Assembly: GCA_964432565.1 (NCBI GenBank)
Contig: CAYSOA010000004.1
Coordinates: forward strand, 38,839-102,838
Length of the DNA stretch: 64,000 nt
Direction of reading: 5' to 3'
DNA from: an uncultured Bacteriovorax sp.
GTDB taxonomy: Bacteria; Bdellovibrionota; UBA1018
The notes beneath the pieces are model-generated. The model was not told the origin of the DNA. It saw only the letters and a program-made list of their open reading frames with translations, and did not search any database. Positions 3,962 through 55,391 of this stretch are shown here, one piece after another. The position numbers were made by a program, and so were the translations under genes. Position 1 is the stretch's first letter; every line of letters starts with the position of its first letter.

Positions 3962-4070
3962 GGAAAAAGGCTAACCGAGCAACATCCTTGATTCACTAAT
4001 AAAAGCGCAATAAGGTCCGCATTACGCGACAAAAAAGTGGGGTCCTTCGAACCCCAAGGAGACTGTCAAC

Positions 4071-5381
4071 ATGTCGATTCATCAGAATCATTCCGTCCCA
4101 GGTGCCGATCTCTGGTCTTCCAGCGATCTCTATCGCAACGCCGTCCAACAGCTGAACGAGGCCGCCTCGCTCATGAACCTTGATCCGAACGTGTCCACGC
4201 GCCTCAGCGTGCCCAAGCGCGCCCTGGTCGTGAGCGTTCCAATCCGTCTCGACAACGGCAACATCAAGGTCTTCGAGGGCTATCGCGTTCAACACAACAT
4301 GACCCTCGGCCCCGGCAAGGGCGGTATCCGTTTCCATCCGGAAGTCACGCTCTCGGAGACGGGAGCGCTCGCGATGCTGATGACCTTCAAGTGCTCGCTC
4401 GTCGGCCTGCCCCTCGGTGGCGCCAAGGGCGGCATTCGAGTCGACTCCACCCAGCTCTCGCGCCAGGAACACCAATCCCTGATGCGTCGCTACACGATGG
4501 AGATCAATACGATCATCGGTCCTGACAAGGACATTCCGGCTCCGGACGTCGGCACCGACGCCCAGCACATGGCCTGGATGATGGACACCTTTTCGCAGAC
4601 GCGGGGATTCGCCACGCCTGGCGTGGTCACCGGAAAGCCGGTCGAGATCGGCGGGTCGCTGGGCCGTGCAGAGTCCACGGGACGCGGCGTGGTCTACACG
4701 ACGGTTCATGCCAAGAAGTACCTCTCCGACAAGGGACGGGGATCGGCCCGAGTGGATTCTTCCACGACCGTGGCCGTCCATGGCTTCGGAAAGGTTGGAG
4801 CGGTGGCCGCTCTCGAGATCCACGCCATGGGCGCCAAAGTGGTGGCCATCGGCGACATCTCGAGTGGGGTGTACAATGCCAACGGACTCAATGTTCCCGA
4901 GGTGTACAACTACTTCCAGAAGCACCGCACGCTGGAAGGATATCCCGAGGCCGAAGCCATCAAGCCGCAGGACGTGCTGACCCTCGACGTTGAGGTACTC
5001 ATGCCGTGCGCGATCGACGGCGTGATCACGGAAAAGAATGCGAGTGACGTCAAGGCAAAGATCATTGCCGAAGGCGCCAACGGCCCGGTCACGACGGCCG
5101 CGATGAAGGTTCTCGAAGAGCGTGGCGCCTTCATCGTTCCCGACGTGCTCTGCAACGCAGGCGGCGTGATTGTCTCGTATTTCGAGTGGGTGCAGGGCAT
5201 CCAGAACTTCTTCTGGAGCGAGAGTCAGGTCAACTCGAAGCTCGCCGAAGTCATGGAAAATGCGTTCAACAAGGTCGTCCAGGTTCGGGACCAGTATGAC
5301 TGCGGCATGAAGACGGCCGCCCTCATTGCCGGCGTCGATCGCCTGAACCGAGCCATGCTGATGCGGGGACTTTTTCCGTAG
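4071..5381 (+). CDS. gdhA: NAD(P)-dependent glutamate dehydrogenase
   Basis: GDH signature motifs are present: KGGIRFHP, LPLGGAKGGI, and GFGKVG in the Rossmann fold. The length is 436 aa. Confidence 0.9.
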   Translation: MSIHQNHSVPGADLWSSSDLYRNAVQQLNEAASLMNLDPNVSTRLSVPKRALVVSVPIRLDNGNIKVFEGYRVQHNMTLGPGKGGIRFHPEVTLSETGALAMLMTFKCSLVGLPLGGAKGGIRVDSTQLSRQEHQSLMRRYTMEINTIIGPDKDIPAPDVGTDAQHMAWMMDTFSQTRGFATPGVVTGKPVEIGGSLGRAESTGRGVVYTTVHAKKYLSDKGRGSARVDSSTTVAVHGFGKVGAVAALEIHAMGAKVVAIGDISSGVYNANGLNVPEVYNYFQKHRTLEGYPEAEAIKPQDVLTLDVEVLMPCAIDGVITEKNASDVKAKIIAEGANGPVTTAAMKVLEERGAFIVPDVLCNAGGVIVSYFEWVQGIQNFFWSESQVNSKLAEVMENAFNKVVQVRDQYDCGMKTAALIAGVDRLNRAMLMRGLFP

Positions 5382-5409
5382 GACCCGGCTCGAGATAAAA
5401 GCTCCCAGG

Positions 5410-5442
5410 CGCCCCGGGCGTTTCCGTCCGGGGCGTTTTTTT
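5410..5442 (+). terminator. rho-independent terminator of gdhA
   Basis: A GC hairpin (CGCCCCGG gcgtttccgt CCGGGGCG) is followed by TTTTTTT. Confidence 0.8.
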
Positions 5443-5511
5443 ACGCCGATAAACCGCTCTTCCCGATCAGCACTTGTCGCTATCCGATGGAAAAGTTACG
5501 GTGGAGCATCC

Positions 5512-23847: not shown

Positions 23848-24635
23848 CCCGGTTTGCGCTTTTCGAGAAACGCCTTGAGGCCTTCCTGCCCTTCCGGAGT
23901 CACGCGCAACTCCGCCAAGGTCTTCGAAACGTACTCGAGGCAGTCTCCCATTTTCTCGCGTCGCTCAGGCCAGGTCAGGTCGAGCACGAGTTGCTTGGCC
24001 ACCGACATCGCCTGCGGCCCGCACTGAAGCATGTTACCCAAAATGCGCTCGCGAGACGCTTGAAGTGCCGCAGTATCCGTGACGACTTCGTGGATGAGAC
24101 CGATCTCGTGGGCGCGCTTCGCGCCAAACCTCTCGGCACTGATGAAGAGCGCCCGAGAATGCGTGGCGCCGATCTTGGCCGTCACGAACGGACCGATGCA
24201 GGCCGGAACAATCCCGAGGCGCACTTCGCTGAGGCTGAACTGCGTATCCTGCGTGGCGACGACCATATCGCAGACACTCGTCAGACCGACTCCGCCGCCG
24301 ATGGCCGCCCCGTGGATAAAACCGATCAGCGGCTTCGGGCACTCATTCATGAGGGCGAACATTCTCGAGAGCGTGCGCGTCTCGACGAGGTTCTGCTCGA
24401 CGTTGAGCTCGACCGAACGCTTCATCCAGTTCAAGTCTCCCCCCGCAGAGAAGACAGGACCTGCACCCTGCAACGTGACGATTTTTACGTCCGCCTTCTG
24501 CACCTCGACCGAGAAAACCTCGGTGAGCTCATCAATCATCGCTTCATTGAAGGCGTTTCGAATCTCGGGACGATTCAGGGTGACATCCAGGACGCCCGGA
24601 TGCCGGATAGAGCGTTCGACCTTGAGGGTTTTCAT
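23832..24635 (-). CDS. enoyl-CoA hydratase/isomerase family (methylglutaconyl-CoA hydratase-like)
   Basis: The crotonase fold motifs are present: FSAGGDL and GAAIGGG. The start was taken at MKTLKV. Confidence 0.8.
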   Translation of the reverse strand: MKTLKVERSIRHPGVLDVTLNRPEIRNAFNEAMIDELTEVFSVEVQKADVKIVTLQGAGPVFSAGGDLNWMKRSVELNVEQNLVETRTLSRMFALMNECPKPLIGFIHGAAIGGGVGLTSVCDMVVATQDTQFSLSEVRLGIVPACIGPFVTAKIGATHSRALFISAERFGAKRAHEIGLIHEVVTDTAALQASRERILGNMLQCGPQAMSVAKQLVLDLTWPERREKMGDCLEYVSKTLAELRVTPEGQEGLKAFLEKRKPGWISS

Positions 24636-24658
24636 GCCCCCGAAACTAACCCAAGCGC

Positions 24659-25444
24659 TTAAAGGCGGCAATCCTGCTTCAATCGATCGGCGAGTCCACG
24701 CGCAGCCGACACTTCGAGACGGGTGATTTCGAGCTGGGTCAGGGCATCGGCAGCAAGGCCCTCAACGTAGCGGCGATCATCGTGTCCAAAGGTGTACCAG
24801 CGACTTTGAATTTCGCCGGTCTCCGAGTCGCGTAGCGTCTCCAAAAAGCGCTCAAAGTCTCTTCCAGCGTGACGACGAACGTCGGTAAACTTCGATGCCA
24901 CCAGAACCGGAAGCTGCGCGGCATCGTCCATCAGATCTTGAAACTCCGCTTCGCTCTTCACTTCCCCGATGAGGTCTTCCAGGCTCAGCTTCAGGTGATT
25001 CACGCCCAGCTCGCGCCGATCCAAAGTTCGATAAAGGTAGCGAACGCCGTGATAGGCCGTCGGCACTGCCACGGCTGAGGTCAATAGTCCGGCCGTCGTC
25101 ACCTTGCCGAGTGGTAGCGTGTAGGCCGCCACTCCCGGAATCAACGACGCCGCCACCACGCCGACGGCCGCACAGGCACTCGAGGTGTAGGCCACGAAGC
25201 GGGCCTTGCCGAGAAGCTTCTTGAAGTCTTGAACCGCGTGCTCCTGGATCTGAGCAGAGGCTTCACGCCGTTCGGCGAGCTTCGTCAGTTTGTGAATCAC
25301 GTCATGTTGCTCGATCTGTGAGCAGTACTCGGCCAGTCTCGGTGAAAGTGCCTGAGGCGACGCCTCGGCAGCAGCGAAGGCCGAAGTCAGAGAAAGGCCG
25401 AACGAGGCCGGAACCACCAAAAAGGACGCGAGCAGCTTCTTCAT
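24659..25444 (-). CDS. hypothetical secreted/membrane protein
   Basis: A signal peptide (MKKLLASFLVVPASFGLSLTSAFAAAEA) and an internal hydrophobic hairpin are present. No motif was recognised. Confidence 0.45.
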   Translation of the reverse strand: MKKLLASFLVVPASFGLSLTSAFAAAEASPQALSPRLAEYCSQIEQHDVIHKLTKLAERREASAQIQEHAVQDFKKLLGKARFVAYTSSACAAVGVVAASLIPGVAAYTLPLGKVTTAGLLTSAVAVPTAYHGVRYLYRTLDRRELGVNHLKLSLEDLIGEVKSEAEFQDLMDDAAQLPVLVASKFTDVRRHAGRDFERFLETLRDSETGEIQSRWYTFGHDDRRYVEGLAADALTQLEITRLEVSAARGLADRLKQDCRL

Positions 25445-25505
25445 GCTGCACTGCACTACCTTAATTCCGAGTGAATTGCTCTTGTTTTTTAAGTCATTGA
25501 AATCA

Positions 25506-27347
25506 CTAAGGAGAACAAACTCCGCCGCAGGTCGTCGGTTGACACCCCGTTCCACTTCCGTAGCGATTCGAACAGGTCGGAAAACACCGGAAGGAGCTCT
25601 CGTCCACGCGCTGCACTCGAGGACCCCACTGCCAGACCCCCGAAATCACGTAGGGGTCGGCAACCAGGGTTTTTCCGGCCTCACACGACACCTGACAAGT
25701 GGCCCCTCCCCGCGTCGTGCATCGGACTTCTTCCACTTCAGGCGACGGAGCCGCACAAACCGCACCGCAAACCGTTGGAGTGCACCCGGTTCCGCCACCC
25801 CAGCGATTTGAACAACCAGGACCACAGGAGATCGTCGTCTCGGTTACCTTTGAAATGGCAGGAGACCACGCCAGAGTGCCGCTGATGTAGTAGGGATTGG
25901 TCACCAACTGCATTCCTGCAGAGCATGACGCCTGACAGGACTGGCTGCCGCCCGGCGTGCGACATGAAATGGCTTCTGTCGGTACACGCACTCCCGCAGA
26001 AGAGCATCCTGACGACTGCAGGACATAGCTGTTGCCGACGAGGTAGATCTTCCGCCCGACGCCACTGTTGTTGTGCTCGGTGCCAGTCAGCACTTCCTCG
26101 ATGTGGCCGTCCGCGAATTTGACCGTAAATGAATAGACGCGGCGGATCGCTCCGTGCGTGGCGCCCAGATAATCCTGGCTTCGCTTGAAGTGAACCCGCT
26201 CGACGTCAGCGGGCAGGGCCTTCGCGTCTCGAACCATGACCCAAACATCGTCGTCCGGAAAGGTGCTCGAATCCGAGCCGCTGTCGGTGGTTTGACTCAG
26301 GTTCAGCTCAGGGATGGGCATCTCATTCGAATCCAGATTCAATTGGCCGGGCTGGGTCAGGTAAGGCGCCATCCGCGACTCGACGTAGTCGAAGTTCGGA
26401 TGCAGCTCGGTGAGCTTCGCGCAGGCGCAGTATTTTCCGATCTCCTGGTATTCACGAACAAACGTGACTGCGGCATCGCTTCCGGTTGCCGTGACAAAAA
26501 ACGGCCCTTGAGCGGAACCAGAGGAGATCGCCCCGATCCATGCTCCCCCACTATTCGAATAGCAGTTGGTGTCGTTCGCACGATTCTTTGAGCACAGAAA
26601 CCGACGGGCAATGGCAGTAGAAGTCGACTGCTCGGCAAGGCCGTCCAGAAAAGACGTCTGGGTTGACGACGACTCGGTCAGGAGCTGCGCCACATTGAAG
26701 ACCAGCGTCTCGTTTTGTGCCTGCCCTCGCGGCAGATCCGGAGTCGAGTGGATTGTGCCGATCGGATCCGCATTGAAGGCCGAAAGTCCGCCCTTGAATA
26801 CTCGTTGGGCATCGAGCGTGTAGAGCTTGCGATCTCCCACCGACCATTCGACCGCCGGCCAGGGCGAGAGGTAGATGTAATGATCCTGCAGACCCCTGTA
26901 CGTGTAAGCCACCCAGTTCGCACCGGCAGCACCGCAGGCGCCCCATTCGGGAGCCGGCAACTGCACCGACACGACCTGATATCCCGGCTGTCCGGGTGTA
27001 CAGACCTTACAGGCCTGAAGGATCTTGTCGTCTCCCGCCTGGAAGCAGCGAGACTGCAGGCCGGAATCCGGCGAGCCCGACGGCTCGGGCGAAAAGGTCG
27101 CAGAAGCCGCCAGTCCCGAGCACGGCGAAGTGGTCATCGCCGCAGTGATCGCGGCCTTCTTCTTTGCGTAATTGACGAGCACCTGCTCGCCTTCACTGGA
27201 AGCGATCTTGCGAAGCGACAAGTTGACCGACTGCGAAAGCAGCGCTCCGGTGACGGCAAGGCCCACGCCGGCCGAAACCACCAACCCCACCGTCACGTTA
27301 CCCTGAACACTTTTCCCGGAAACCCCGATACTGCGTCGAATCCCCAT
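25506..27347 (-). CDS. Cys-rich membrane-anchored protein with tandem 8-Cys C-terminal repeats (613 aa)
   Basis: The start was taken at MGIRRS. There is an N-terminal TM anchor and two tandem ~65-aa repeats (CQxSCxAG...NPY.ISG...W.P...V.E...C.P.CSNR.G.GTGC.PT.CG.VC) plus a partial third. It is divergent from the pilin-like genes. Confidence 0.6.
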   Translation of the reverse strand: MGIRRSIGVSGKSVQGNVTVGLVVSAGVGLAVTGALLSQSVNLSLRKIASSEGEQVLVNYAKKKAAITAAMTTSPCSGLAASATFSPEPSGSPDSGLQSRCFQAGDDKILQACKVCTPGQPGYQVVSVQLPAPEWGACGAAGANWVAYTYRGLQDHYIYLSPWPAVEWSVGDRKLYTLDAQRVFKGGLSAFNADPIGTIHSTPDLPRGQAQNETLVFNVAQLLTESSSTQTSFLDGLAEQSTSTAIARRFLCSKNRANDTNCYSNSGGAWIGAISSGSAQGPFFVTATGSDAAVTFVREYQEIGKYCACAKLTELHPNFDYVESRMAPYLTQPGQLNLDSNEMPIPELNLSQTTDSGSDSSTFPDDDVWVMVRDAKALPADVERVHFKRSQDYLGATHGAIRRVYSFTVKFADGHIEEVLTGTEHNNSGVGRKIYLVGNSYVLQSSGCSSAGVRVPTEAISCRTPGGSQSCQASCSAGMQLVTNPYYISGTLAWSPAISKVTETTISCGPGCSNRWGGGTGCTPTVCGAVCAAPSPEVEEVRCTTRGGATCQVSCEAGKTLVADPYVISGVWQWGPRVQRVDESSFRCFPTCSNRYGSGTGCQPTTCGGVCSP

Positions 27348-27418
27348 CCCAAAAGTGTAGCACAACAAGTTCCGAAAGCGGCGTTGACCCCTGCTGCGAC
27401 GTAGGCAACACTTTACGC

Positions 27419-27937
27419 GTGTCCCTTTCATCGAAGAACCTTCACCAAAACCACACTGGAATCACGCTGTTGGGCGGGATGGTCACCCTCGGCACGATTG
27501 CCTTATCGGTGTCTTTTCTGACCCAGTCCGCGCTGCACTCGCGGCGCACGAGTCAGGCCATCGAAAATCGGATTGATGCCTCGCTCGTGGCGAGCAACAT
27601 CCTGAATGCGATTGCAACCACTTCGACCGAAGGCATTCGAATCATGGCCGCCAGCGCTCCTGCCGACAGCTGGATCGACAAAACGAACCCAACACTAGCC
27701 TGGCTTGGCACGTGGGAATCGGCAGGAGGCGTACGGAATATTCGAGTGCGGTTTTCGGCGTTTCAGGTGCTTTCCAGCCCCACCCCCATGCTGAGCCCTG
27801 TTCCTTATCCCACGGCCATGCCCTCTCCCGCCTCGACACCCGAACCCTCGCACCAGGTCGATCTGGAGCTCGAGTTCTCGCGCGACTCCGGAAAAAGCTG
27901 GCAAACGTTTTCGGCCTCGAAGTGGGTGGCAAGGTGA
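27419..27937 (+). CDS. minor pilin/pseudopilin-like protein lacking Glu5 (GspK/PilX-like N-terminus)
   Basis: A GTG start leads into ...NHTG-ITLLGGMVTLGTIALSVSFL, a hydrophobic prepilin-like helix without E at +5. Its stop overlaps the next start (GTGA). Confidence 0.4.
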   Translation: MSLSSKNLHQNHTGITLLGGMVTLGTIALSVSFLTQSALHSRRTSQAIENRIDASLVASNILNAIATTSTEGIRIMAASAPADSWIDKTNPTLAWLGTWESAGGVRNIRVRFSAFQVLSSPTPMLSPVPYPTAMPSPASTPEPSHQVDLELEFSRDSGKSWQTFSASKWVAR

Positions 27938-28575
27938 ACACGCGGCAGGGTTACAGCACGGTCGAGCTGATTCTGGCGTCAGCGGTCACGCTTCTCGCGA
28001 CGATGATTCTTGGGCTTTCGATCACCTATTTCATCGGACAGGCCTCGCGACAGAAAGTTCAGATCGAACAAACGGCGCAGGCTCAGGCGTTTTTGCAGCT
28101 TTTGCGCAAAGACCTGGCATCGGCTTCCGATATCGCCGTCGATCCTCCGAGCTCGCAAGCTCCCACCGGGTTCAAGCTCACCCAGAAGATCCTGAGTGCG
28201 GGCGCTGTCACGACACGTGACACGACCTACACGATCGGTGGAGCCACCACCTGCACGACCTCCACCAAGAAATCTTTTGCCTGCATCCGCGTGCAGCGAA
28301 AATCCGGAGAGAATGCTCCGGTCGAATTACCGAACGTCGTGGCGTTCCGATGGTGCTCCGAAAAGCTGCGAGCCGGAACACATTCGGTGCCCGCCGATTG
28401 CGCGGCACTCACCGCGCTCAACCAGCCCCTTCCAGCCACCCCCGCCCGCTTCATCGGCGAGATCACCGTTTTGGCCCACCCCGAGCGACCCGCCGGAGAG
28501 CAGACCAAGGTCGTCCCTTTCATCTATGAAGCTGGCAATCTCGGCGCGAAGATCCAGGTCCTGAAGACCGAATGA
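27934..28575 (+). CDS. type IV pilin-like / pseudopilin protein (class III signal peptide)
   Basis: After a GTG start the N-terminus reads MNTRQG-YSTVELILASAVTLLATMI, the canonical G|(F/Y)xxxE prepilin motif. Conserved Cys residues follow in the C-terminal half. Confidence 0.65.
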   Translation: MNTRQGYSTVELILASAVTLLATMILGLSITYFIGQASRQKVQIEQTAQAQAFLQLLRKDLASASDIAVDPPSSQAPTGFKLTQKILSAGAVTTRDTTYTIGGATTCTTSTKKSFACIRVQRKSGENAPVELPNVVAFRWCSEKLRAGTHSVPADCAALTALNQPLPATPARFIGEITVLAHPERPAGEQTKVVPFIYEAGNLGAKIQVLKTE

Positions 28576-28642: not shown

Positions 28643-29950
28643 TCAGTAGCGGTTTCTTCGTTCGGTCTCGCTCTTCAACAAGAGCGGATTGGAAATGATG
28701 CGGTCCCGCGCCGTTTCGGCCTCAAGACGCGAGGAATAGGTTCCCCAATAAAGACGAGCCGTTTTCCCGGAACGCTCCCTTTTCGTGAGATAAAGCCGAA
28801 ATTGCGACGTCCAGAAGCCCGGTTTCTGAGACTTCACGATCACATCCTCCACCGTGTAGATCGACCGACTGACCGTTGCTGGCTCAAGCGAATCGTCTCC
28901 GGCGTCGACATGAACCTCCTCGGGAAGACCCTCGAGAAGCATCTCCTTCATCAGCCTCAGCAGTTTTTCGCCGCCGGGTGAGTCGACCTCCCCTAGACCG
29001 AACACTTCATCGTAATAGCGATTATTCTTCAGACCAATCGTCAACTCTGGCGCCCGATAGATCTTCTCATCCTGAATCTCAAACGCGCCCTGCGACAAGC
29101 TGATGCGCTCCCACTGATAGAGCTTGCGCTTTTTGAGCTCAAGATCTCCTGCACGACCACCAGCCTTAGAGACATAGTCCTCGCGCTCAGTCTCGTTGCA
29201 GGCCAGAAGGCGCAGCTCTTCTCGACCCTCTTTCTCCTCTACGCAGTACCCTGAACCTCCCTTTTGAATCCACCCCCAGCAGGATTTAGATTCGAATTCG
29301 CGGCACTTCGGAAACTCGAGACGGCCGGAGTCGTTGGCCTGGGAGTATTCGATCCAGAAGTTGTTCTTTCCGGGCAGATACGGATCCCACAATCCGCTCG
29401 AGATCTCCTGATTGACTCGAACCTCGAGGTTCGGCACCGGCATCTCCTTCAGAAGCTGCTGGGTTCCCTCGCGAAGACGCGTCGGATCGTTGCCTCCCGA
29501 ACAGGCCGTATTGTCGACGCGCAGATCGATCTCGTACTTGCTCGCCGCCGGAAGAATATCCGTTCTCAGCCACTCGACGGTCTGGTTGGCGCTCGCCCAG
29601 TGTCCGACATAGCCGACGACGACCTTCTTCTGCCGAAAGCTCTCGTCCAGAAGGTCGGACAGTTCCGGAAGCTTTCCGGACTCGATGCGAAGCGTTTTTG
29701 CGCAGGACTGATGAGTGAACCAGATGCTGCACCCCAGCTTGAAGAAACCCTGCTGGCTCTTCGGAAACGAGCCGATCTCGCACACACAAAGGTCATTCTC
29801 GCGCACTTCAGCCTTGCGCTTCCAAAAGGCCGGGTCGCGACTGCCGTCATCAACGAATGGCTGTGAGGACACGGTTCCGGAAGGCACCGTCGAACAGCCC
29901 GCAAGGATGATGGTCGCTCCCCAAAGGCTCCACGTTGAAAAGTTGTGCAT
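28643..29950 (-). CDS. hypothetical lipoprotein with possible C-terminal SPOR-like domain
   Basis: The start was taken at MHNFSTW and the lipobox reads ILAGC. The C-terminus (YTVEDVIVKSQ...TARLYWGTYSSRLEAETARDRI) resembles a SPOR peptidoglycan-binding domain. Confidence 0.5.
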   Translation of the reverse strand: MHNFSTWSLWGATIILAGCSTVPSGTVSSQPFVDDGSRDPAFWKRKAEVRENDLCVCEIGSFPKSQQGFFKLGCSIWFTHQSCAKTLRIESGKLPELSDLLDESFRQKKVVVGYVGHWASANQTVEWLRTDILPAASKYEIDLRVDNTACSGGNDPTRLREGTQQLLKEMPVPNLEVRVNQEISSGLWDPYLPGKNNFWIEYSQANDSGRLEFPKCREFESKSCWGWIQKGGSGYCVEEKEGREELRLLACNETEREDYVSKAGGRAGDLELKKRKLYQWERISLSQGAFEIQDEKIYRAPELTIGLKNNRYYDEVFGLGEVDSPGGEKLLRLMKEMLLEGLPEEVHVDAGDDSLEPATVSRSIYTVEDVIVKSQKPGFWTSQFRLYLTKRERSGKTARLYWGTYSSRLEAETARDRIISNPLLLKSETERRNRY

Positions 29951-30066: not shown

Positions 30067-30828
30067 CTAGGGCGCTTTTTCTGGTGCCGGGCGAATCAAG
30101 TCGCGAAAATAGCCGTTAAAAAGATCTCCCTTTTCGTCGCCGTACAGGTCGACCGGATTGTACTTTCCGGGAGCAGGGCCGAACCGCTCGGCCTCAGAAA
30201 CAAAGAAAACGAGAGGATTGGTGGAGCTCGCCTGCTGCGTCGTCAGCCACTCGATCCATTCCTCGGCGCTCACGACCCGGCTGAGCTCTGAGTCGATGAC
30301 CCACCAGCCCCCTTCCTTTGCTGCGACCAGGGCGGCCACATGATGCCCCCAACCGCCAAGCATCGGACCGACTCCCCAGATCTTGAGTATCCGAGACCGG
30401 GCAAGTCCTCGCCGAAGCGCCTCGAGATGAACGGCCGTCGCCCGACCGAAACAAAAGCCGAAGTTTCCCTTGGGGTCATATCATTTGAGATGCCTCATCC
30501 CGGCGACTGGATGGCAGTTCAGGTACTCGAAAAGGTCTTGTGCCTCACGAAGCGACATCCCTCCCTCGCGTCGGGCAGGGGGCGGTAACTGAGCCCGCAG
30601 TGCTCTCGATAGGTCGTTGTTCCACTGCTCGACAGCCAAAAGCCCCTCGTCCCTGCGAAGCAGGCTCGAGCGCACGCTAAAAAAATCCTTCCCACTGGTG
30701 CGACCGACGACAGAGTCCAGCCATTCCGCGTTCATCCTCTGTTCCAGCCTCTCGAACAGGTCACTGCAGTCACTGGCATGAACGGCGGATCCAGCGACGA
30801 TGGAAACGACCATCAGCGCAAGCCTCAT
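30067..30828 (-). pseudogene. secreted transglutaminase-like (TGc) cysteine peptidase interrupted by an in-frame TGA
   Basis: ORFs 30481..30828 and 30067..30363 are in the same frame and separated only by a TGA (the complement of 30481-30483). The joined protein has a signal peptide (MRLALMVVSIVAGSAVHA) and a TGc core: GFCFG..LRRGLARSRI ... GHHVA ... GGWWVIDS (Cys-His-Asp). Confidence 0.55.
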
Positions 30829-31015
30829 CCCCAGTCCGTTCTTCACCGTTCGAAAGTGTTTGATCAGCAATCGTTTCGTCACAGCGTTTTCCGTCAAATC
30901 CTCGTCGGCCTTCAGGGGGGTTGGCATGAGTTTTTCTCGCTACTCCACACCACGCCTTTCAGGTCAGTGAAGACACAACTGATGCGTCCCCGACCGAGGG
31001 CCTATTCTCGAGAGC

Positions 31016-31483
31016 ATGAACCCTGCATCCGACGAATGGCGCATCTTTCTTCGTCACGCCCATCGCGAGCTTTTCGATCGCTCGCAGGACAACGGCCTCT
31101 CCGAGAAGGGACACCGTCAGGGCCGCAAGATCCAGGAATGGCTGAAAGAGCATTCACCCAAGCCCGATCGCGTGTTCTCGAGCCCGAAGCTGCGGTGCCT
31201 CGAGACCGCGGAGTATGTTGCGAAACTCTACGGACTCGAAGTCGAGATCCTACACGAGCTGGACGAGCAGCGCCCCGAGGAGAGCGACCAGGGCTTCAAG
31301 AATCGCGTGGCGAACTTCCTCGGCTCGAAACAGTGCCCGCCGCGCTCGGTCTTTTGCACGCATGGAGACGTCCTGCCGGAGCTGGCTCGACTTCTGGGCC
31401 TGCCGGGAGTCGACATTCACAAGGGCGATCTGTTCATCGAACGCGACGGCAGGATCGTCAGCACCAACCCGGTTCGGGCGTAA
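31016..31483 (+). CDS. histidine phosphatase superfamily protein (SixA-like phosphohistidine phosphatase)
   Basis: The N-terminus reads FLRHAHRE (the RHG/RHA motif), a conserved His lies near the C-terminus (FCTHGDV), and the length is 155 aa. Confidence 0.6.
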   Translation: MNPASDEWRIFLRHAHRELFDRSQDNGLSEKGHRQGRKIQEWLKEHSPKPDRVFSSPKLRCLETAEYVAKLYGLEVEILHELDEQRPEESDQGFKNRVANFLGSKQCPPRSVFCTHGDVLPELARLLGLPGVDIHKGDLFIERDGRIVSTNPVRA

Positions 31484-31767
31484 ATGGTCGGGCCCACCTT
31501 TTGGTTTCGGAACTGCGTCAAAACACGCAGGAGTGACTCAGAAATTCACCGTTCGGGTACGGACAGTCCTCGCTCCGCTTTGCGGAGCTGCGGAACTACC
31601 GAACGGATGAATTTCCGGATCACCCCTGCGCGCCTGCACGCCGGGATCCGGAAGAGTCGCGCCCGCGAGTTCCCTGCGCAGCAGGGTTGTCTGAAGCGGG
31701 CGTGCTCTTTCGGTCCGGGCCTGGAAGGTGGAAGGTGGGTCCGACCCTTTTGTGGTAAGTTCGAGCC

Positions 31768-33387
31768 ATGCCTACCGAAAGCCCCGTCCTCAAGTCGCAA
31801 GTGCAGACCTCTTCTGACGAGTTTCGCGCCAATGCCGAGCACCATCGGCAGCTCGCCGCCGAGCTCGAGGCCCGAACCGAGGAGGCCCGTGGGGGGGGCG
31901 GCAGAGAAGCCCGAGAACGACATCAGAGTCGTGGAAAACTTCTGGTTCGCGATCGTATTGGCGCACTGGTCGATCCGGGCACCTCGTTCCACGAACTCTC
32001 GGCGCGGGCGGCGAATGGGATGTATGACGGAGCCGCTCCCTCCGCCGGCGTTGTCACGGGAAACGGCGTCGTACATGGACGCGAGGTGGCCATCGTGGCC
32101 AACGACGCCACCGTCAAGGGCGGCACCTATTTTCCGATGACCGTGAAGAAGCACCTCCGCCTTCAGGAGATCGCTCGCGAGAACAGGCTTCCCTGCGTCT
32201 ATCTCGTTGACTCGGGCGGGGCCTACCTGCCGCTGCAGTCTGAAGTTTTTCCAGACCGAGACCACTTCGGACGCATCTTCTACAACCAGGCCTCGATGTC
32301 GGCCGAAGGCATCCCGCAGGTCGCCGTCGTCATGGGTTCCTGCACTGCAGGAGGCGCCTATGTCCCGGCAATGTCGGATGAAACCATCATTGTCAAAAAC
32401 CAGGGCACGATTTTTCTGGGCGGCCCTCCGCTCGTCAAGGCTGCAACCGGAGAAGTGGTCACGGCCGAAGAACTTGGCGGTGGAGACGTCCACTCGCGCA
32501 CGTCGGGAGTTACCGACCATCTGGCCGAGAATGATGAGCACGCTCTCGAGATCGCTCGTTCGGTACTGGCCCACCTGAATCGCCCGGCGCCGACCTCCTG
32601 CGACCGCCAGGCGGTCGAAGAGCCGCTCTACGATCCCGCAGAAATCGCAGGAATCCTTCCGCAGGACCTGCGCCAGCCCTTCGACGTCCGTGAAGTCATC
32701 GCTCGACTCGTCGACGGCTCGCGTTTTCATGAGTTCAAGGCGCTCTATGGCACGACGCTCGTCTGCGGCTTTGCCAATCTCTGGGGATACCCCGTGGGCA
32801 TCATCGCCAATAACGGCATCTTGTTCAGCGAGTCGGCCCTCAAGGGCGCGCATTTCGTCGAGCTGTGCTGCAAGCGCAAGATTCCGCTGATCTTTCTGCA
32901 GAACATCACAGGCTTCATGGTCGGCAGAAAGTACGAAACCGGTGGCATCGCCAAGGACGGGGCCAAGCTCGTCACCGCCGTTTCGAACGCCAGGGTGCCC
33001 AAGTTCACCGTCCTGATGGGCGGCAGCTATGGAGCCGGAAACTACGGCATGTGCGGACGCGCCTTTCAGCCGCGCTTTTTGTGGAGCTGGCCTAACTCCC
33101 GAATTTCGGTCATGGGCGGAGAGCAGGCTGCCAACGTCCTGTCGCAGGTCAAGATCGACCAACTTCAGGCGAAGGGAATGAAGCTCTCGCCGGAAGAAAT
33201 TGCGGCCATTCAGGATCCGGTTCGCGAAGCCTACGAACGCGAGGGAAATCCCTACTTCGCCACCGCTCGTCTGTGGGATGATGGAATCGTGATGCCGTGG
33301 AAGACGCGAGAGGCACTCGCGCGGGCTCTGTCGACGGTCTACAATGCCCCCATTCCCGAAACGGACTTCGGGGTCTTTCGAATGTAA
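31768..33387 (+). CDS. methylcrotonyl-CoA carboxylase beta subunit (carboxyltransferase)
   Basis: Carboxyltransferase N- and C-domains are recognisable across the 539 aa (e.g. ...[13 protein letters not shown]...). The long antisense ORF 31546..33450 was rejected. Confidence 0.85.
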
Positions 33388-33397
33388 GGACTTTGCC

Positions 33398-34624
33398 ATG
33401 AAGGATTGCTCGCCACGCCGAAACAGCCTGTTGAAGACGGGACTTGTCACTGCGGCGACGATCCTTCTGGCCGGATGTTCGCACTCTCCAGAAAGACTTC
33501 CGTCGTCTGAACCGTCCTCACGGGACGAGGCACTTTCGCGGTCCGAGGTACGCGCGCTCTATCCCGAGCTCACTCCCGCTCAGTTTCGCTCGAAACTCGA
33601 CGGAGCTGACACGCCCTACCGTTTTCTTCGTTCGTTTGCTCGCGTCTACTACAGAATTTTTGGGCGGTTACGAGAACGCCTCCCCACGAGCTTCTCGGCG
33701 GCTCTCGAAACGACCGGATGGTGCGCGGGAGATGCCCATCCCGAAAACTTCGGCACCCTCGTGGATGATCGTGGCCGCGCCAGCTTCACGCTGATCGATC
33801 TCGACGACACGGGCCCCTGCACGGTAGTTTCCGATCTTCTTCGCTTTCTGATCGCCGCCCGCCTCGCTGACCCCGACATGAACTCGAGCGAAGGAATGGA
33901 CGATCTGCTTGATGCCTACTTCGATGGCACTGAGGGCCGAGTCAAGCTGTCGATACCGGTGCGGGAGCTGCTCGATTCAGCAGCAGGGGATACAGACTTT
34001 AAAAAAAGCCTGGAGGTCGAGGGAGATGACGGAGAACCGCTGACCCGGAAGGTGGACGGCCAAGAGCTGGCCCGCCTCCGGCGGACGGCCAGAAAAGCAT
34101 TCGGAAACGTGACCGTCCGAAAGGCCACTCGCTATGCCAAGACCCGCGGAGGATCGGCGGGAATCCCCCGTTACCGAGTGGAACTCGGCGACCGATCGGT
34201 GCTCGAGTTTCGAACCCTGGTGGCTCCCGCCGTCTTTTTTGAGTCCAAGGACGCAGGCCCTCCCGCTTCCCACCCAGCCAGCCGGGACCCCCTCTTCCGC
34301 ATGAACGAAACCCTGAAAGCCACCGCACCGGCAGGACGATCCCGCTGGTTCAGCGTTCAAAAGCTGGGAGACGATTGGGTTTTGATTTCTCCCCGCTATC
34401 GGGGAATCGACACGATCGAACTGAAACGTGATTCGGAGGGCTCCCACAAGAACAGAAGAAAAATCCTGCGGGACGAGGCAGCCGTACTGGGCGACCTGCA
34501 TGCCCGAACCACCCCTGCCTTTCAGCGCACCGTAGAGGTGCTGCGGTCAATCCGAGCCCGCGACTGGGAACGCGCCGAGCTCCTGCTCCTGCGAGCCCTC
34601 GGGGGCAGCCCAGCCGAAAACTGA
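33398..34624 (+). CDS. DUF2252-like lipoprotein
   Basis: The lipobox reads LLAGC and a GDAHPENFG motif characteristic of the DUF2252 family is present. The start was taken at MKDCSP. Confidence 0.55.
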   Translation: MKDCSPRRNSLLKTGLVTAATILLAGCSHSPERLPSSEPSSRDEALSRSEVRALYPELTPAQFRSKLDGADTPYRFLRSFARVYYRIFGRLRERLPTSFSAALETTGWCAGDAHPENFGTLVDDRGRASFTLIDLDDTGPCTVVSDLLRFLIAARLADPDMNSSEGMDDLLDAYFDGTEGRVKLSIPVRELLDSAAGDTDFKKSLEVEGDDGEPLTRKVDGQELARLRRTARKAFGNVTVRKATRYAKTRGGSAGIPRYRVELGDRSVLEFRTLVAPAVFFESKDAGPPASHPASRDPLFRMNETLKATAPAGRSRWFSVQKLGDDWVLISPRYRGIDTIELKRDSEGSHKNRRKILRDEAAVLGDLHARTTPAFQRTVEVLRSIRARDWERAELLLLRALGGSPAEN

Positions 34625-52911: not shown

Positions 52912-53691
52912 ATGAAACGCTTCCTCCCCCTCGCTGCTGCTGTCATCGTCGTGGGCATCTTTCTCAAAAGCTCACAAAAGGAGCCTTCGGAACCCTCCAC
53001 CACCCCCACCGAGGCGGTTGATCTACCGGTTGCCGACCTCTCCGGCGAGGATCGGCCCTCTCAGACCCGCGAAGTCGGCGAGTCGGAGACCGTTCGACCT
53101 TCGTCGGTTGCTTCAAAAGAGCGCGGGACCGAACCGACCAAGCCTGCGACAAGCAGCATCCCTCCCCGGTCCTCCTGCTGGGCCGCGTCCTTTGAAATCA
53201 CCCGAAGCCTCAGCGCAGCGCAAAGGGAGTCCTTCGGCGAACGCGATCACCTTCTCGATCTCTCGGCCCTTCGCGAGCGGTTTCCCAAGTGGTCTTCGTC
53301 ACGGCTCTGCGTCCGTGCCGAAGGCCATGCTCTCTCCTTCGAGAAGGATTCGAAAAGAAGGGATCACGTCCGCATCCGCGGAGGCTCGGGCAGAATTCGT
53401 CCCGACAGCACCCTGAAGGCGAGCTACTGCTCCGAGAAGGCCATCGACTGCGCCCCCTGCGTCGTGGTCCAGGAGGATTTCGACTCTGCCCTCTTTGGAG
53501 AGTCGGCCGAGGACCAGGCCGAGAACGAAGAGTCGGACATTACCGCACAACTTTCTCCCGAGGTTCAGCGAGAGCTCGCCCGTCTCGAACGCGAAAGGGC
53601 TCCTGCGGCCATTGACCACTGGAAGACCCGTGAGGTCGGCTCGGATTGCACCCCCTCCCCGCGAGTCGCCCAACGTGGAGACCGTCACTGA
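52912..53691 (+). CDS. hypothetical secreted protein, first gene of the Agl/Glt-like cluster
   Basis: There is a signal or anchor helix (MKRFLPLAAAVIVVGIFL) and several Cys residues. Its stop overlaps the next start (TGATG). Confidence 0.5.
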   Translation: MKRFLPLAAAVIVVGIFLKSSQKEPSEPSTTPTEAVDLPVADLSGEDRPSQTREVGESETVRPSSVASKERGTEPTKPATSSIPPRSSCWAASFEITRSLSAAQRESFGERDHLLDLSALRERFPKWSSSRLCVRAEGHALSFEKDSKRRDHVRIRGGSGRIRPDSTLKASYCSEKAIDCAPCVVVQEDFDSALFGESAEDQAENEESDITAQLSPEVQRELARLERERAPAAIDHWKTREVGSDCTPSPRVAQRGDRH

Positions 53692-55391
53692 TGAAGCGCG
53701 CACGCCCACTACGAGTGCTCTCGGGTCTTACCGGAATTCGAAGCCTTGCGCTCGCCGGCAGCTTCGCGCTCCTCTCCCTCTCCGGCTGTACCGAGCAGCT
53801 TCCGGGAAGCTTTCGTTACAAACAGCAGCTCGAAGTCTTTTCGACCAGCCAGGAGGTCAACACCTCCATTGATCTGCTCTGGGTGGTCGACAACTCGGCC
53901 AGCATGGATGTCAGCCAGAAGAAGCTGCGCGATGGATTTTCTGCCTTCGCCCGCGCCTATCTCAAACCCACCTGGGACATCCGTCTGGCCGTGATCACGA
54001 CCGACACCTACCTCGCCCACGCCGCATTCGACGGCTACCTGAATACCGTGATCCCCGGAACCGTCGGCTGGAGGTCGAATCATATCGCCCAGCGTTCGGT
54101 GGATTTCGTCAATCCTGAGCGGATCCCGAACCTTTGGGACAACGCCACGAAGACCTTTCCCAACGGAGTTCGTTATGGCGATATCTCGCCCGTCTGGGGC
54201 TCGAACTGGGCACGACTCATCCCTGGAATTCATGATGGTCCGATGACCACGCTCTGCTCCGAGCTTCTGCCCTACTTTCTCAAGGGCACGTCTCTCTGCT
54301 CCTCGAGAGACCAAATTCTCCCCGCTACGGCCGAAGCAGATGGACTGCGCCCCTGCGTGAGCCCCGATTCCGGAGCTGGAGAATCGAGCGTCACTTCCTG
54401 CATCAATACGACCCAGGTCGACGTCCTGCACACTCAAAGTCCGATCCTCGAAACCCAGCCGCCAACAGGCGTGCCCGCAGATGAGGCGTGGGTGGATGCA
54501 TTGGTTGAAAGGTTTCTCGTCAATGCCAGCGTCGGCAGTTCGGGCCAGGGTTCTGAACGCGGCATCAGCTCGGTACTGCAGCTTCTGGCCGACAACGAGA
54601 GCACCGAAACCCGCTTCTTTCGTCCGGGATCCCTACGCGGCATCCTGTTCATGAGCGATGAGGACGATCAGTCGATGGATCTCTCGCTTGCCACTCCCGG
54701 AACCACCCCACAGACTCACTATCAGTGCGACCAGGAGCGCCTTGCCGAACTCAATCCCGGTGACTCACGGGTGACGACCAGCTGTCCGACCCTCTCCAGT
54801 CGCTGTCCCGAAAAGGTGATCGACGGGTTCAGCTACCGTGTTTCTTACTGTCCGGCAGAGTCCGCCCCCCTGCTGTCGGTCGCCTCTGCAAAACAGCAGC
54901 TCGACACGTTCTTCACCGAGCTGGACGAAGGCACCCAGCCCCAGCCCAATTACTTCGTTGCCGCCATCATCCCCACCTCGGCCGCGGCGATCCAGCAGCT
55001 TCAGGAGGGCCGAGTCAGCGAGGACTCGGCTGTCGGGGCGCTTAAAAACTGGGCCGTCGACCGGGGTGACCGCTACCTCGAACTGGTCGAACGCGTGAAC
55101 AACGGCTCGCTGGCCCTGAATATCGCCGAATCCGACTACACGCCCATTCTCGAAACCATCGGCCGCACGATCGTCTCCAAAAAGGCAACGTTCAAGCTGC
55201 AACGAGAACCCAGCTCACTCGAAGAATTGATGATCTGGGTTCGCCATAACGACGAAACCCGCACGCTGATTTCAGACGAGCAGTTTTCGATCGAAGGAAC
55301 CACGCTCCGGATCACGGACCTTGATCTGGTGCTTTCGCTCGTCTCCACGGATCGGATCGTCATCGACTACCAGCCCAAGAACCTCAAATAA
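53691..55391 (+). CDS. Cys-rich von Willebrand factor A domain lipoprotein (CglB-like candidate adhesin)
   Basis: The lipobox reads LSLSGC and a VWA MIDAS motif is present (LLWVVDNSASM). There are more than 14 Cys residues across the 567 aa. Confidence 0.6.
   Translation: MKRARPLRVLSGLTGIRSLALAGSFALLSLSGCTEQLPGSFRYKQQLEVFSTSQEVNTSIDLLWVVDNSASMDVSQKKLRDGFSAFARAYLKPTWDIRLAVITTDTYLAHAAFDGYLNTVIPGTVGWRSNHIAQRSVDFVNPERIPNLWDNATKTFPNGVRYGDISPVWGSNWARLIPGIHDGPMTTLCSELLPYFLKGTSLCSSRDQILPATAEADGLRPCVSPDSGAGESSVTSCINTTQVDVLHTQSPILETQPPTGVPADEAWVDALVERFLVNASVGSSGQGSERGISSVLQLLADNESTETRFFRPGSLRGILFMSDEDDQSMDLSLATPGTTPQTHYQCDQERLAELNPGDSRVTTSCPTLSSRCPEKVIDGFSYRVSYCPAESAPLLSVASAKQQLDTFFTELDEGTQPQPNYFVAAIIPTSAAAIQQLQEGRVSEDSAVGALKNWAVDRGDRYLELVERVNNGSLALNIAESDYTPILETIGRTIVSKKATFKLQREPSSLEELMIWVRHNDETRTLISDEQFSIEGTTLRITDLDLVLSLVSTDRIVIDYQPKNLK

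What the first reader, a model, noticed from the sequence alone, without database searches (positions are those of the whole stretch)
30067..30828. In-frame TGA nine codons upstream of the catalytic Cys of a secreted transglutaminase-like peptidase
Two ORFs share one frame and are separated by a single TGA, the complement of 30481-30483. The joined product has a signal peptide, ...MRHLK-[TGA]-YDPKGNFGFCFGRATAVHLEALRRGLARSRIL... (the TGc Cys motif), and then GHHVA...GGWWVIDS (His/Asp).

The catalytic core lies downstream of the stop and has no alternative start codon, so the downstream ORF alone cannot give a functional enzyme. That leaves a recent nonsense mutation (a pseudogene), a sequencing error, or recoding through selenocysteine or read-through. 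Other genes in the window use TGA as a normal stop, topA among them.
Basis: seen in the sequence. Interest (0 to 1): 0.55.

Follow-up and report, generated by a model that had tools for sequence, protein, structure and literature searches.

The report
Nonsense-mutated secreted protein-glutaminase-like gene
A gene for a secreted protein-glutaminase-like cysteine enzyme in a Bdellovibrio-type bacterium is cut short by an ordinary premature stop codon that replaces a lysine codon, so it is a recent pseudogene and not a selenocysteine or recoding site.

Summary
On the minus strand one reading frame runs 30927..30067 and holds a single TGA (complement of 30481-30483), ten codons before the Cys of a Cys-His-Asp triad. 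No in-frame start codon lies between the TGA and that Cys.

The recoding idea fails. A strain 95.7% identical in DNA carries the same gene intact, with AAA (Lys) at this codon. In 26 orthologues from species-representative genomes the codon is mostly Lys and never Cys, Trp or TGA. There is no SECIS-like structure, and TGA ends many well-defined genes in the window.

The TGA also appears in a second assembly (a Logan contig from SRR14492200). It differs from the intact allele by two adjacent bases. A simple read or assembly error is therefore unlikely.

The rest of the gene is undamaged, so the lesion is recent, or a strain-level polymorphism.

Verdict: an ordinary nonsense mutation, of low interest.

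The parts
30067..30927 (-). Whole disrupted gene, 286 codons counted from the first ATG. It encodes a pre-pro protein-glutaminase-like Cys-His-Asp enzyme, carries one internal TGA and ends at TAG 30067-30069.
   Evidence: sequence and translation. (full-length homologues span both halves). (intact 286-aa allele P0023 in L002).
30481..30483 (-). Premature stop codon TGA at codon 149. It replaces AAA (Lys) of the intact allele.
   Evidence: window CTC AAA TGA TAT GAC against L002 CTC AAA AAA TAC GAT; orthologue codons are AAA/AAG or other sense codons, never TGA, TGG or TGY.
30775..30828 (-). Likely true start (Met34) and signal-peptide-like segment MRLALMVVSIVAGSAVHA.
   Evidence: Read from the sequence. 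Orthologues begin near here with hydrophobic N-termini. pLDDT is low over residues 1-50 in the model. No signal-peptide predictor was available, so this part is inferred.
30484..30774 (-). Helical pro-region-like segment plus the first ~30 residues of the catalytic domain (including the conserved HPVAG motif). Apart from the signal peptide, this is all that the truncated ORF can encode.
   Evidence: profile positions 64-211 align to residues 108-262 of the 312-aa protein-glutaminase precursor chain 8z3i; helices H51-77, H82-91, H95-111, H126-137.
30451..30453 (-). Codon of the catalytic Cys159, in the motif GFCFGRA.
   Evidence: Invariant in 22 family members. Aligns to Cys42 of Chryseobacterium protein-glutaminase (triad numbering from PMC3498931).
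30340..30342 (-). Codon of the catalytic His196, in the motif WGHHVA.
   Evidence: Invariant. Aligns to His83 of protein-glutaminase.
30292..30294 (-). Codon of the catalytic Asp212, in the motif VIDS.
   Evidence: Invariant. Aligns to Asp103 of protein-glutaminase.
28643..29950 (-). Neighbouring gene for a 435-aa lipoprotein-like protein of unknown function (MHNFSTWSLWGATIILAGCS...). Its linkage to the glutaminase-like gene is conserved.
   Evidence: ORF. (no Pfam match); orthologues at 41-54% identity lie next to the glutaminase-like gene in L003, L004 and L005, but upstream of it there.

Best explanation
The TGA is a genuine premature stop codon. It arose by two adjacent base substitutions, AAA (Lys149) to TGA, probably through AGA or TAA. 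The gene encodes a secreted, zymogen-type, protein-glutaminase-like enzyme with a papain fold and a Cys159-His196-Asp212 triad. The host is a bacterium of the Bdellovibrionota.

Translation ends after the signal peptide, the pro-region and about 30 residues of the catalytic domain. No product carries the triad, so the allele is a loss-of-function pseudogene. The remaining sequence is undamaged, so the lesion is recent or a strain-level polymorphism.

Shown: the stop codon, its absence from a near-identical strain and from all orthologues, the family assignment, and the lack of a rescuing start codon. Inferred: that no functional enzyme is made, and that the mutation is recent.
For: - The frame and the stop were verified.
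- The intact allele P0023/L002 is 95.7% identical in DNA over 1870 bp and has AAA at this codon.
- The codon is AAA/AAG (Lys) in 16 of 26 orthologues in species-representative genomes, and V, T, D, N, S, H or Q in the other 10. It is never Cys, Trp or a stop. The 21 spanning homologues from the protein search are also uninterrupted.
- The same TGA is present in an independently built contig, L001 from Logan run SRR14492200, which is 99.94% identical to the window.
- TGA is the commonest true stop here. It ends 28 of 38 long ORFs (some of these stop-to-stop ORFs are spurious) and terminates Ddl, SucA, SucB, CheA, CheB and biotin carboxylase just after their last domain.
- There is no SECIS. The 64 nt from the UGA fold at -16.8 kcal/mol against a shuffle mean of -18.0 (z +0.41). 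Rfam gives no match. The window holds no tRNA-Sec.
- Downstream of the stop the window and the intact allele differ at 7 synonymous and 0 non-synonymous codons, and every invariant family residue is retained. This fits a recent lesion.
Against: - I could not inspect raw reads. I also do not know whether the deposited genome and Logan contig L001 come from the same read set, so the two assemblies may not be independent.
- The absence of any non-synonymous change downstream of the stop would also be expected if the domain were still made at a low level by read-through. The numbers are small (7 changes).
- A two-base change is less common than a single-base nonsense mutation.
Confidence: 0.85

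Rival explanations
1. Sequencing, consensus or assembly error: the organism really has a sense codon (AAA or AGA) and the gene is intact.
For: The genome is evidently a metagenome-derived assembly, since all relatives are MAGs. The gene is otherwise perfect. Raw reads were not available.
Against: The TGA is reproduced in a second assembly made with different software, L001, which differs from the window at one other base. The difference from the nearest intact allele is two adjacent substitutions, not an indel or a single miscall. The window is otherwise densely covered by long intact ORFs.
Confidence: 0.07
2. Leaky or programmed UGA read-through (near-cognate tRNA-Trp or similar) yields a small amount of full-length enzyme, so the allele is a throttled gene rather than a dead one.
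For: There are no non-synonymous changes in the 137 codons after the stop. The stop falls at a position that tolerates K, V, T, D, N, S, H and Q in the family, so any inserted residue would probably be accepted.
Against: The TGA is not conserved in any relative. There is no stimulatory structure 3' of it. The 3' sequence is almost the same in the intact AAA allele. The stop is followed by U, which from my own knowledge of E. coli termination contexts (Poole et al. 1995) is an efficient context for UGA. TGA is the normal stop of this genome.
Confidence: 0.06
3. Selenocysteine insertion at the UGA: the product is a selenoprotein.
For: Only the in-frame UGA near a catalytic Cys.
Against: Homologues have Lys or other non-Cys residues at this column, and a near-identical strain has AAA. 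There is no SECIS-like hairpin beyond chance and no Rfam hit. No tRNA-Sec lies in the window. The site lies in a short helix (144-150) of the model, ten residues before the catalytic Cys, and is not a redox motif.
Confidence: 0.01
4. Genome-wide reassignment of TGA to a sense codon (code 4 or 25-like).
For: None beyond this one codon.
Against: TGA ends 28 of 38 long ORFs, including conserved enzymes whose Pfam domains finish a few residues before it. The genome is about 60% G+C.
Confidence: 0.005

Closest known systems
Protein-glutaminase (EC 3.5.1.44) of Chryseobacterium proteolyticum and Flavobacterium sp. (PDB 2zk9, 3a54-56, 8z3i; Pfam PF18626 Gln_deamidase_2)
   Different: Identity is only 16-20%. 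The window protein alone scores 12.6 bits against PF18626, below the 25-bit cut-off, and only 9 of 22 family members reach E <= 0.01. The catalytic domain is shorter, at about 150-170 aa. The family sits in Bdellovibrionota rather than Bacteroidota. Activity is untested. This copy is truncated by a stop codon.
Ordinary bacterial pseudogenes made by a nonsense mutation
   Same: A single premature stop in an otherwise intact gene. An intact allele exists in a close relative. No rescuing start codon is present.
   Different: The change involves two adjacent bases rather than one. No further decay is visible yet.
Bacterial selenoprotein genes (UGA + SECIS, for example fdhF)
   Same: An in-frame UGA in an enzyme gene.
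   Different: There is no Cys or Sec at the homologous position, no SECIS and no conservation of the UGA.
Transglutaminase-like cysteine proteinases (LapG/BTLCP; Transglut_core enzymes)
   Different: No Pfam Transglut_core or BTLCP match. These are clearly more distant than the protein-glutaminases.

Membership tests
Bacterial selenoprotein gene | The in-frame UGA aligns with Cys or Sec in homologues | tested here: not met
   The column holds Lys in most homologues and V, T, D, N, S, H, Q or R in the rest. A 95.7%-identical strain has AAA.
Bacterial selenoprotein gene | SECIS hairpin immediately 3' of the UGA | tested here: not met
   The fold of the 64 nt from the UGA has z +0.41 against shuffles. 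There is no Rfam match at E <= 10 other than two chance eukaryotic/archaeal small-RNA hits. The 3' sequence is nearly the same in the AAA allele.
Bacterial selenoprotein gene | selA, selB, selC (tRNA-Sec) and selD present in the genome | not testable with these tools
   Only 64 kb are available. The window holds one tRNA (Thr) and no tRNA-Sec.
Pseudogene by nonsense mutation | Premature stop relative to full-length orthologues, with an intact allele in a close relative | tested here: met
   The ORF has 148 codons against 241-351 aa in homologues. P0023 is 286 aa and intact.
Pseudogene by nonsense mutation | No downstream start that could restore a product with the active site | tested here: met
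   There is no ATG, GTG or TTG in frame between the TGA and Cys159. The next start is Met189.
Pseudogene by nonsense mutation | The stop is real in the organism (read support) | tested here: inconclusive
   It is seen in two assemblies, the window and Logan contig L001.
Protein-glutaminase (PF18626) | Cys-His-Asp triad at the positions of Cys42/His83/Asp103 | tested here: met
   C159, H196 and D212 are invariant and align to those residues (numbering from PMC3498931).
Protein-glutaminase (PF18626) | Significant sequence match to the family model | tested here: inconclusive
   The single sequence scores 12.6 bits, below the 25-bit cut-off. The family profile reaches E 1e-9 against 8z3i. Nine of 22 members hit PF18626, best E 1.7e-6.
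Protein-glutaminase (PF18626) | Same fold as solved protein-glutaminases | tested here: met
Protein-glutaminase (PF18626) | Pre-pro (zymogen) architecture | tested here: inconclusive
   There is a hydrophobic N-terminus and a helical segment at residues 51-137. Part of it aligns with 8z3i residues upstream of the segment that aligns to the catalytic domain; I take these to be its pro-region, although the boundary in 8z3i was not checked. Neither cleavage site can be tested.
Protein-glutaminase (PF18626) | Deamidates protein-bound glutamine | not testable with these tools
   This needs an enzyme assay on the intact allele.
Transglutaminase-core / BTLCP peptidases | Match to Transglut_core or BTLCP family models | tested here: not met

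The most novel reading that the evidence does not exclude
The TGA allele might not be dead. It might persist in the population because low-level UGA read-through keeps a potentially harmful secreted protein-glutaminase at trace levels. Separately, the family could be an unrecognised predation-related effector module: it is almost confined to Bdellovibrionota, it is always linked to a lipoprotein gene, and its pro-region evolves fast. In that case its loss in some strains would mark ecological differentiation.
Probability: 0.06. Interest if true: 0.4.

Novelty: already known. Interest (0 to 1): 0.1.

Why it matters
It matters little beyond annotation. The two ORFs should be annotated as one pseudogene, disrupted by an internal stop, of a protein-glutaminase-like enzyme. 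They should not be flagged as a candidate selenoprotein or recoding site.

The one mildly useful by-product concerns the gene family. It is an uncharacterised, secreted, zymogen-type relative of protein-glutaminase, found almost only in predatory Bdellovibrionota and linked to a lipoprotein gene. Protein-glutaminases are of industrial interest for food-protein deamidation, and nothing is known about their role in predators.

Tried and rejected
- Selenocysteine: rejected on the orthologue column (Lys), the lack of a SECIS and the absence of the UGA from relatives.
- TGA reassignment: rejected on stop-codon usage in conserved genes.
- Re-initiation downstream of the stop: rejected, because no in-frame start precedes Cys159.
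- Two exact-pattern scans of JGI metagenome contigs, meant to find more copies of either allele, found nothing. A look-up of the 98-aa downstream ORF product found no record. A literature search for the two SRA run numbers found nothing. The population frequency of the allele therefore stays unknown.
- A first attempt to seed a genome scan from the 22-sequence alignment failed because it had no conserved stretch. A 13-sequence alignment worked.
- My ad hoc scans for other in-frame-stop gene pairs in the window did not separate real cases from antisense or adjacent ORFs. I draw no conclusion from them.
- The promoter/terminator scan around the gene gave nothing above chance.

Full report
**1. 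The observation.** On the minus strand the frame from 30927 to 30067 translates without interruption except for one TGA, the complement of 30481-30483 (codon 149).
- Upstream of the TGA the frame reads ...NCHPVAGMRHLK.
- Downstream it reads YDPKGNFGFCFGRATAVHLEALRRG...WGHHVA...GGWWVIDS...EKAP, followed by TAG.
- ORF listing gives a 148-aa ORF (30481-30927). Downstream in the same frame there is only a 98-aa ORF that starts at Met189 (30363), which is past the Cys.
- None of the nine codons between the TGA and the Cys codon (TGT, 30453-30451) is ATG, GTG or TTG.
Its upper coordinate, 30828, is the ATG of Met34. This ATG begins a signal-peptide-like segment (MRLALMVVSIVAGSAVHA|SD) and is a plausible true start.

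**2. One gene, normally uninterrupted.** A protein search with the joined sequence found 22 relatives.
- Twenty-one of them are 201-351 aa long and span both halves.
- The 22nd (P0008) is the 148-aa fragment itself, from the same genome.
- In the alignment the column of the TGA holds Lys in the six closest orthologues (54-65% identity) and Val in the seventh. The more distant ones have K, R, D and other residues.
- C159, H196 and D212 are invariant across the family, within the motifs GFCFGRA, W-HHVA and ID.

**3. The decisive comparison.** The 90%-identity cluster of the fragment also contains a 286-aa member, P0023. It comes from a Logan assembly of a different run, SRR19514071.
- Its contig (L002) is 95.7% identical to the window over 1870 bp.
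- At the critical point it reads CTC AAA AAA TAC GAT, where the window reads CTC AAA TGA TAT GAC.
- The stop therefore replaces a Lys codon by two adjacent substitutions, presumably through AGA (Arg) or TAA.
- A scan of one genome per species (GTDB representatives) found 26 further orthologous loci, nearly all in Bdellovibrionota MAGs.
- At the homologous position these loci have AAA or AAG in 16 cases. The other ten have GTT/GTC, ACT, GAC, AAC/AAT, AGC, CAT or CAG. None has TGA, TGG or TGY.
- A selenocysteine site is expected to align with Cys (or Sec) in homologues. This one does not.

**4. Other tests of recoding.**
- The 64 nt starting at the UGA fold at -16.8 kcal/mol. Dinucleotide shuffles average -18.0 kcal/mol, giving z +0.41.
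- Rfam at E <= 10 gives only two chance hits to eukaryotic or archaeal small RNAs.
- At gathering thresholds the whole window yields only one tRNA, tRNA-Thr.
- The sequence 3' of the stop is nearly identical in the AAA allele, so nothing there co-evolved with the UGA.
- TGA is the main stop codon of this ~60% G+C genome. It ends 28 of the 38 longest non-overlapping stop-to-stop ORFs, some of which are spurious. It terminates Ddl, SucA, SucB, CheA, CheB, biotin carboxylase, two histidine kinases and two transporters within a few residues of the end of their last Pfam domain.
- Reassignment of TGA is therefore excluded.

**5. Error or mutation?**
- The same TGA occurs in Logan contig L001 (SRR14492200, 1680 bp). 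L001 matches the window at all but one base, and that one base lies elsewhere in the gene.
- Two assemblies made with different software thus agree, and the change involves two adjacent bases. A miscall is unlikely.
- I could not see reads, and I cannot tell whether both assemblies used the same read set. A residual probability of about 7% stays with error.
- Scans of JGI metagenome contigs for either allele found nothing.

**6. Age of the lesion.**
- There is no frameshift or second stop.
- Between the window and the intact allele, codons 1-148 differ at 12 non-synonymous and 10 synonymous codons.
- Codons 150-286 differ at 0 non-synonymous and 7 synonymous codons.
- The catalytic half thus shows no decay, as expected for a very recent mutation or a segregating polymorphism.
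- Retained low-level expression by read-through would give the same picture. However, nothing else supports it, and the numbers are small.

**7. What the gene encodes.**
- The single sequence gives only a sub-threshold Pfam hit, to PF18626 Gln_deamidase_2 ('Glutaminase'), at 12.6 bits against a 25-bit cut-off.
- Nine of 22 family members match that model at E <= 0.01, best 1.7e-6.
- A profile of the family matches solved protein-glutaminases. It reaches E 1e-9 against 8z3i (Flavobacterium) and E 0.02-0.04 against 2zk9 and 3a54-56 (Chryseobacterium).
- In those alignments C159, H196 and D212 fall on Cys42, His83 and Asp103. The triad numbering is from PMC3498931.
- An AlphaFold model built on the intact allele with the family alignment has mean pLDDT 85.4.
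- Its best Foldseek match in the PDB is 8z3i, at E 2.3e-4.
- The known enzyme is made as a pre-pro-protein of 21 + 114 + 185 aa (PMC6132073).
- The protein here has the same layout: a hydrophobic N-terminus, helices over residues 51-137, then the catalytic domain. Part of the helical region aligns with 8z3i residues upstream of the segment that aligns to the catalytic domain. I take these to be its pro-region, but I did not check the boundary in 8z3i.
- By analogy with Cys42 of the mature enzyme, the mature domain would begin near residue 118. The stop then falls about 30 residues into it, in the short helix 144-150.
- 'Transglutaminase-like peptidase' is therefore correct only at superfamily level. 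'Protein-glutaminase-like' is the better name. Activity is untested.

**8. Surroundings.**
- The locus is ordinary chromosome. A histidine-phosphatase gene (31016-31483, +) lies upstream and divergent, followed by an acyl-CoA carboxyltransferase gene (31768-33387, +).
- Downstream on the same strand is a 435-aa lipoprotein-like gene (28643-29950) with no Pfam match.
- That lipoprotein gene is also adjacent to the glutaminase-like gene in L003, L004 and L005. There it sits upstream of the glutaminase-like gene, between it and the phosphatase gene. The pair is thus conserved but its order is swapped.
- No promoter or terminator signal exceeded chance.

**9. Verdict.**
- This is a real but ordinary nonsense allele, a recent pseudogene, of a secreted protein-glutaminase-like enzyme in a Bdellovibrionota genome.
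- My probabilities: pseudogene about 0.85, assembly error about 0.07, tolerated read-through about 0.06, selenocysteine or code change about 0.01 or less.
- Interest is low.

Noticed in passing
window 30104-30453 (codons 159-274 of the gene) compared with L002 859-1208: A 351-nt tract shows no difference from the other strain, although the 1870-bp alignment differs at 4.3% (81 positions; Poisson P about 3e-7). The tract starts 28 nt 3' of the TGA. It could be a recent recombination or gene-conversion tract, or a chimeric metagenome contig.
   Followed up: partly
window 28643-29950 (-), and L003 3543-4868, L004 4598-5908, L005 36-1181: A lipoprotein-like gene with no Pfam match is adjacent to the glutaminase-like gene in this genome and in three orthologous loci (41-54% identity). 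It lies downstream here and upstream there, so the linkage is conserved but the order is swapped.
   Followed up: partly
loci L003-L028: The protein-glutaminase-like family is almost confined to Bdellovibrionota MAGs (Bdellovibrionia, Bacteriovoracia, Oligoflexia, Pseudobdellovibrio). A few hits are in Riflebacteria and Myxococcota MAGs. None has a functional annotation.
   Followed up: partly
window 30484-30927 (codons 1-148): Against the 95.7%-identical strain, the signal/pro-region half has 12 non-synonymous and 10 synonymous codon differences. The catalytic half has 0 and 7. The pro-region therefore evolves much faster than the catalytic domain.
   Followed up: no
The long ORFs are two histidine kinases, CheA, a GH15 glucoamylase-like protein, SucA, a TPR protein and a 641-aa protein with no Pfam match.
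   Followed up: partly
window 24079-28575 and 1064-2353, 3996-5495, 53634-55391: Several sizeable ORFs (215-641 aa) have no Pfam match at all. They include a run of four next to the finding (24079-24726 +, 24659-25555 -, 25506-27431 -, 27712-28575 +).
   Followed up: no
window 31546-33450 (-) against 31768-33387 (+): A 634-aa antisense ORF fully overlaps the carboxyltransferase gene, which is the real gene (Pfam E 4e-154). This is a typical high-G+C shadow ORF and shows that ORF length alone misleads in this window.
   Followed up: yes
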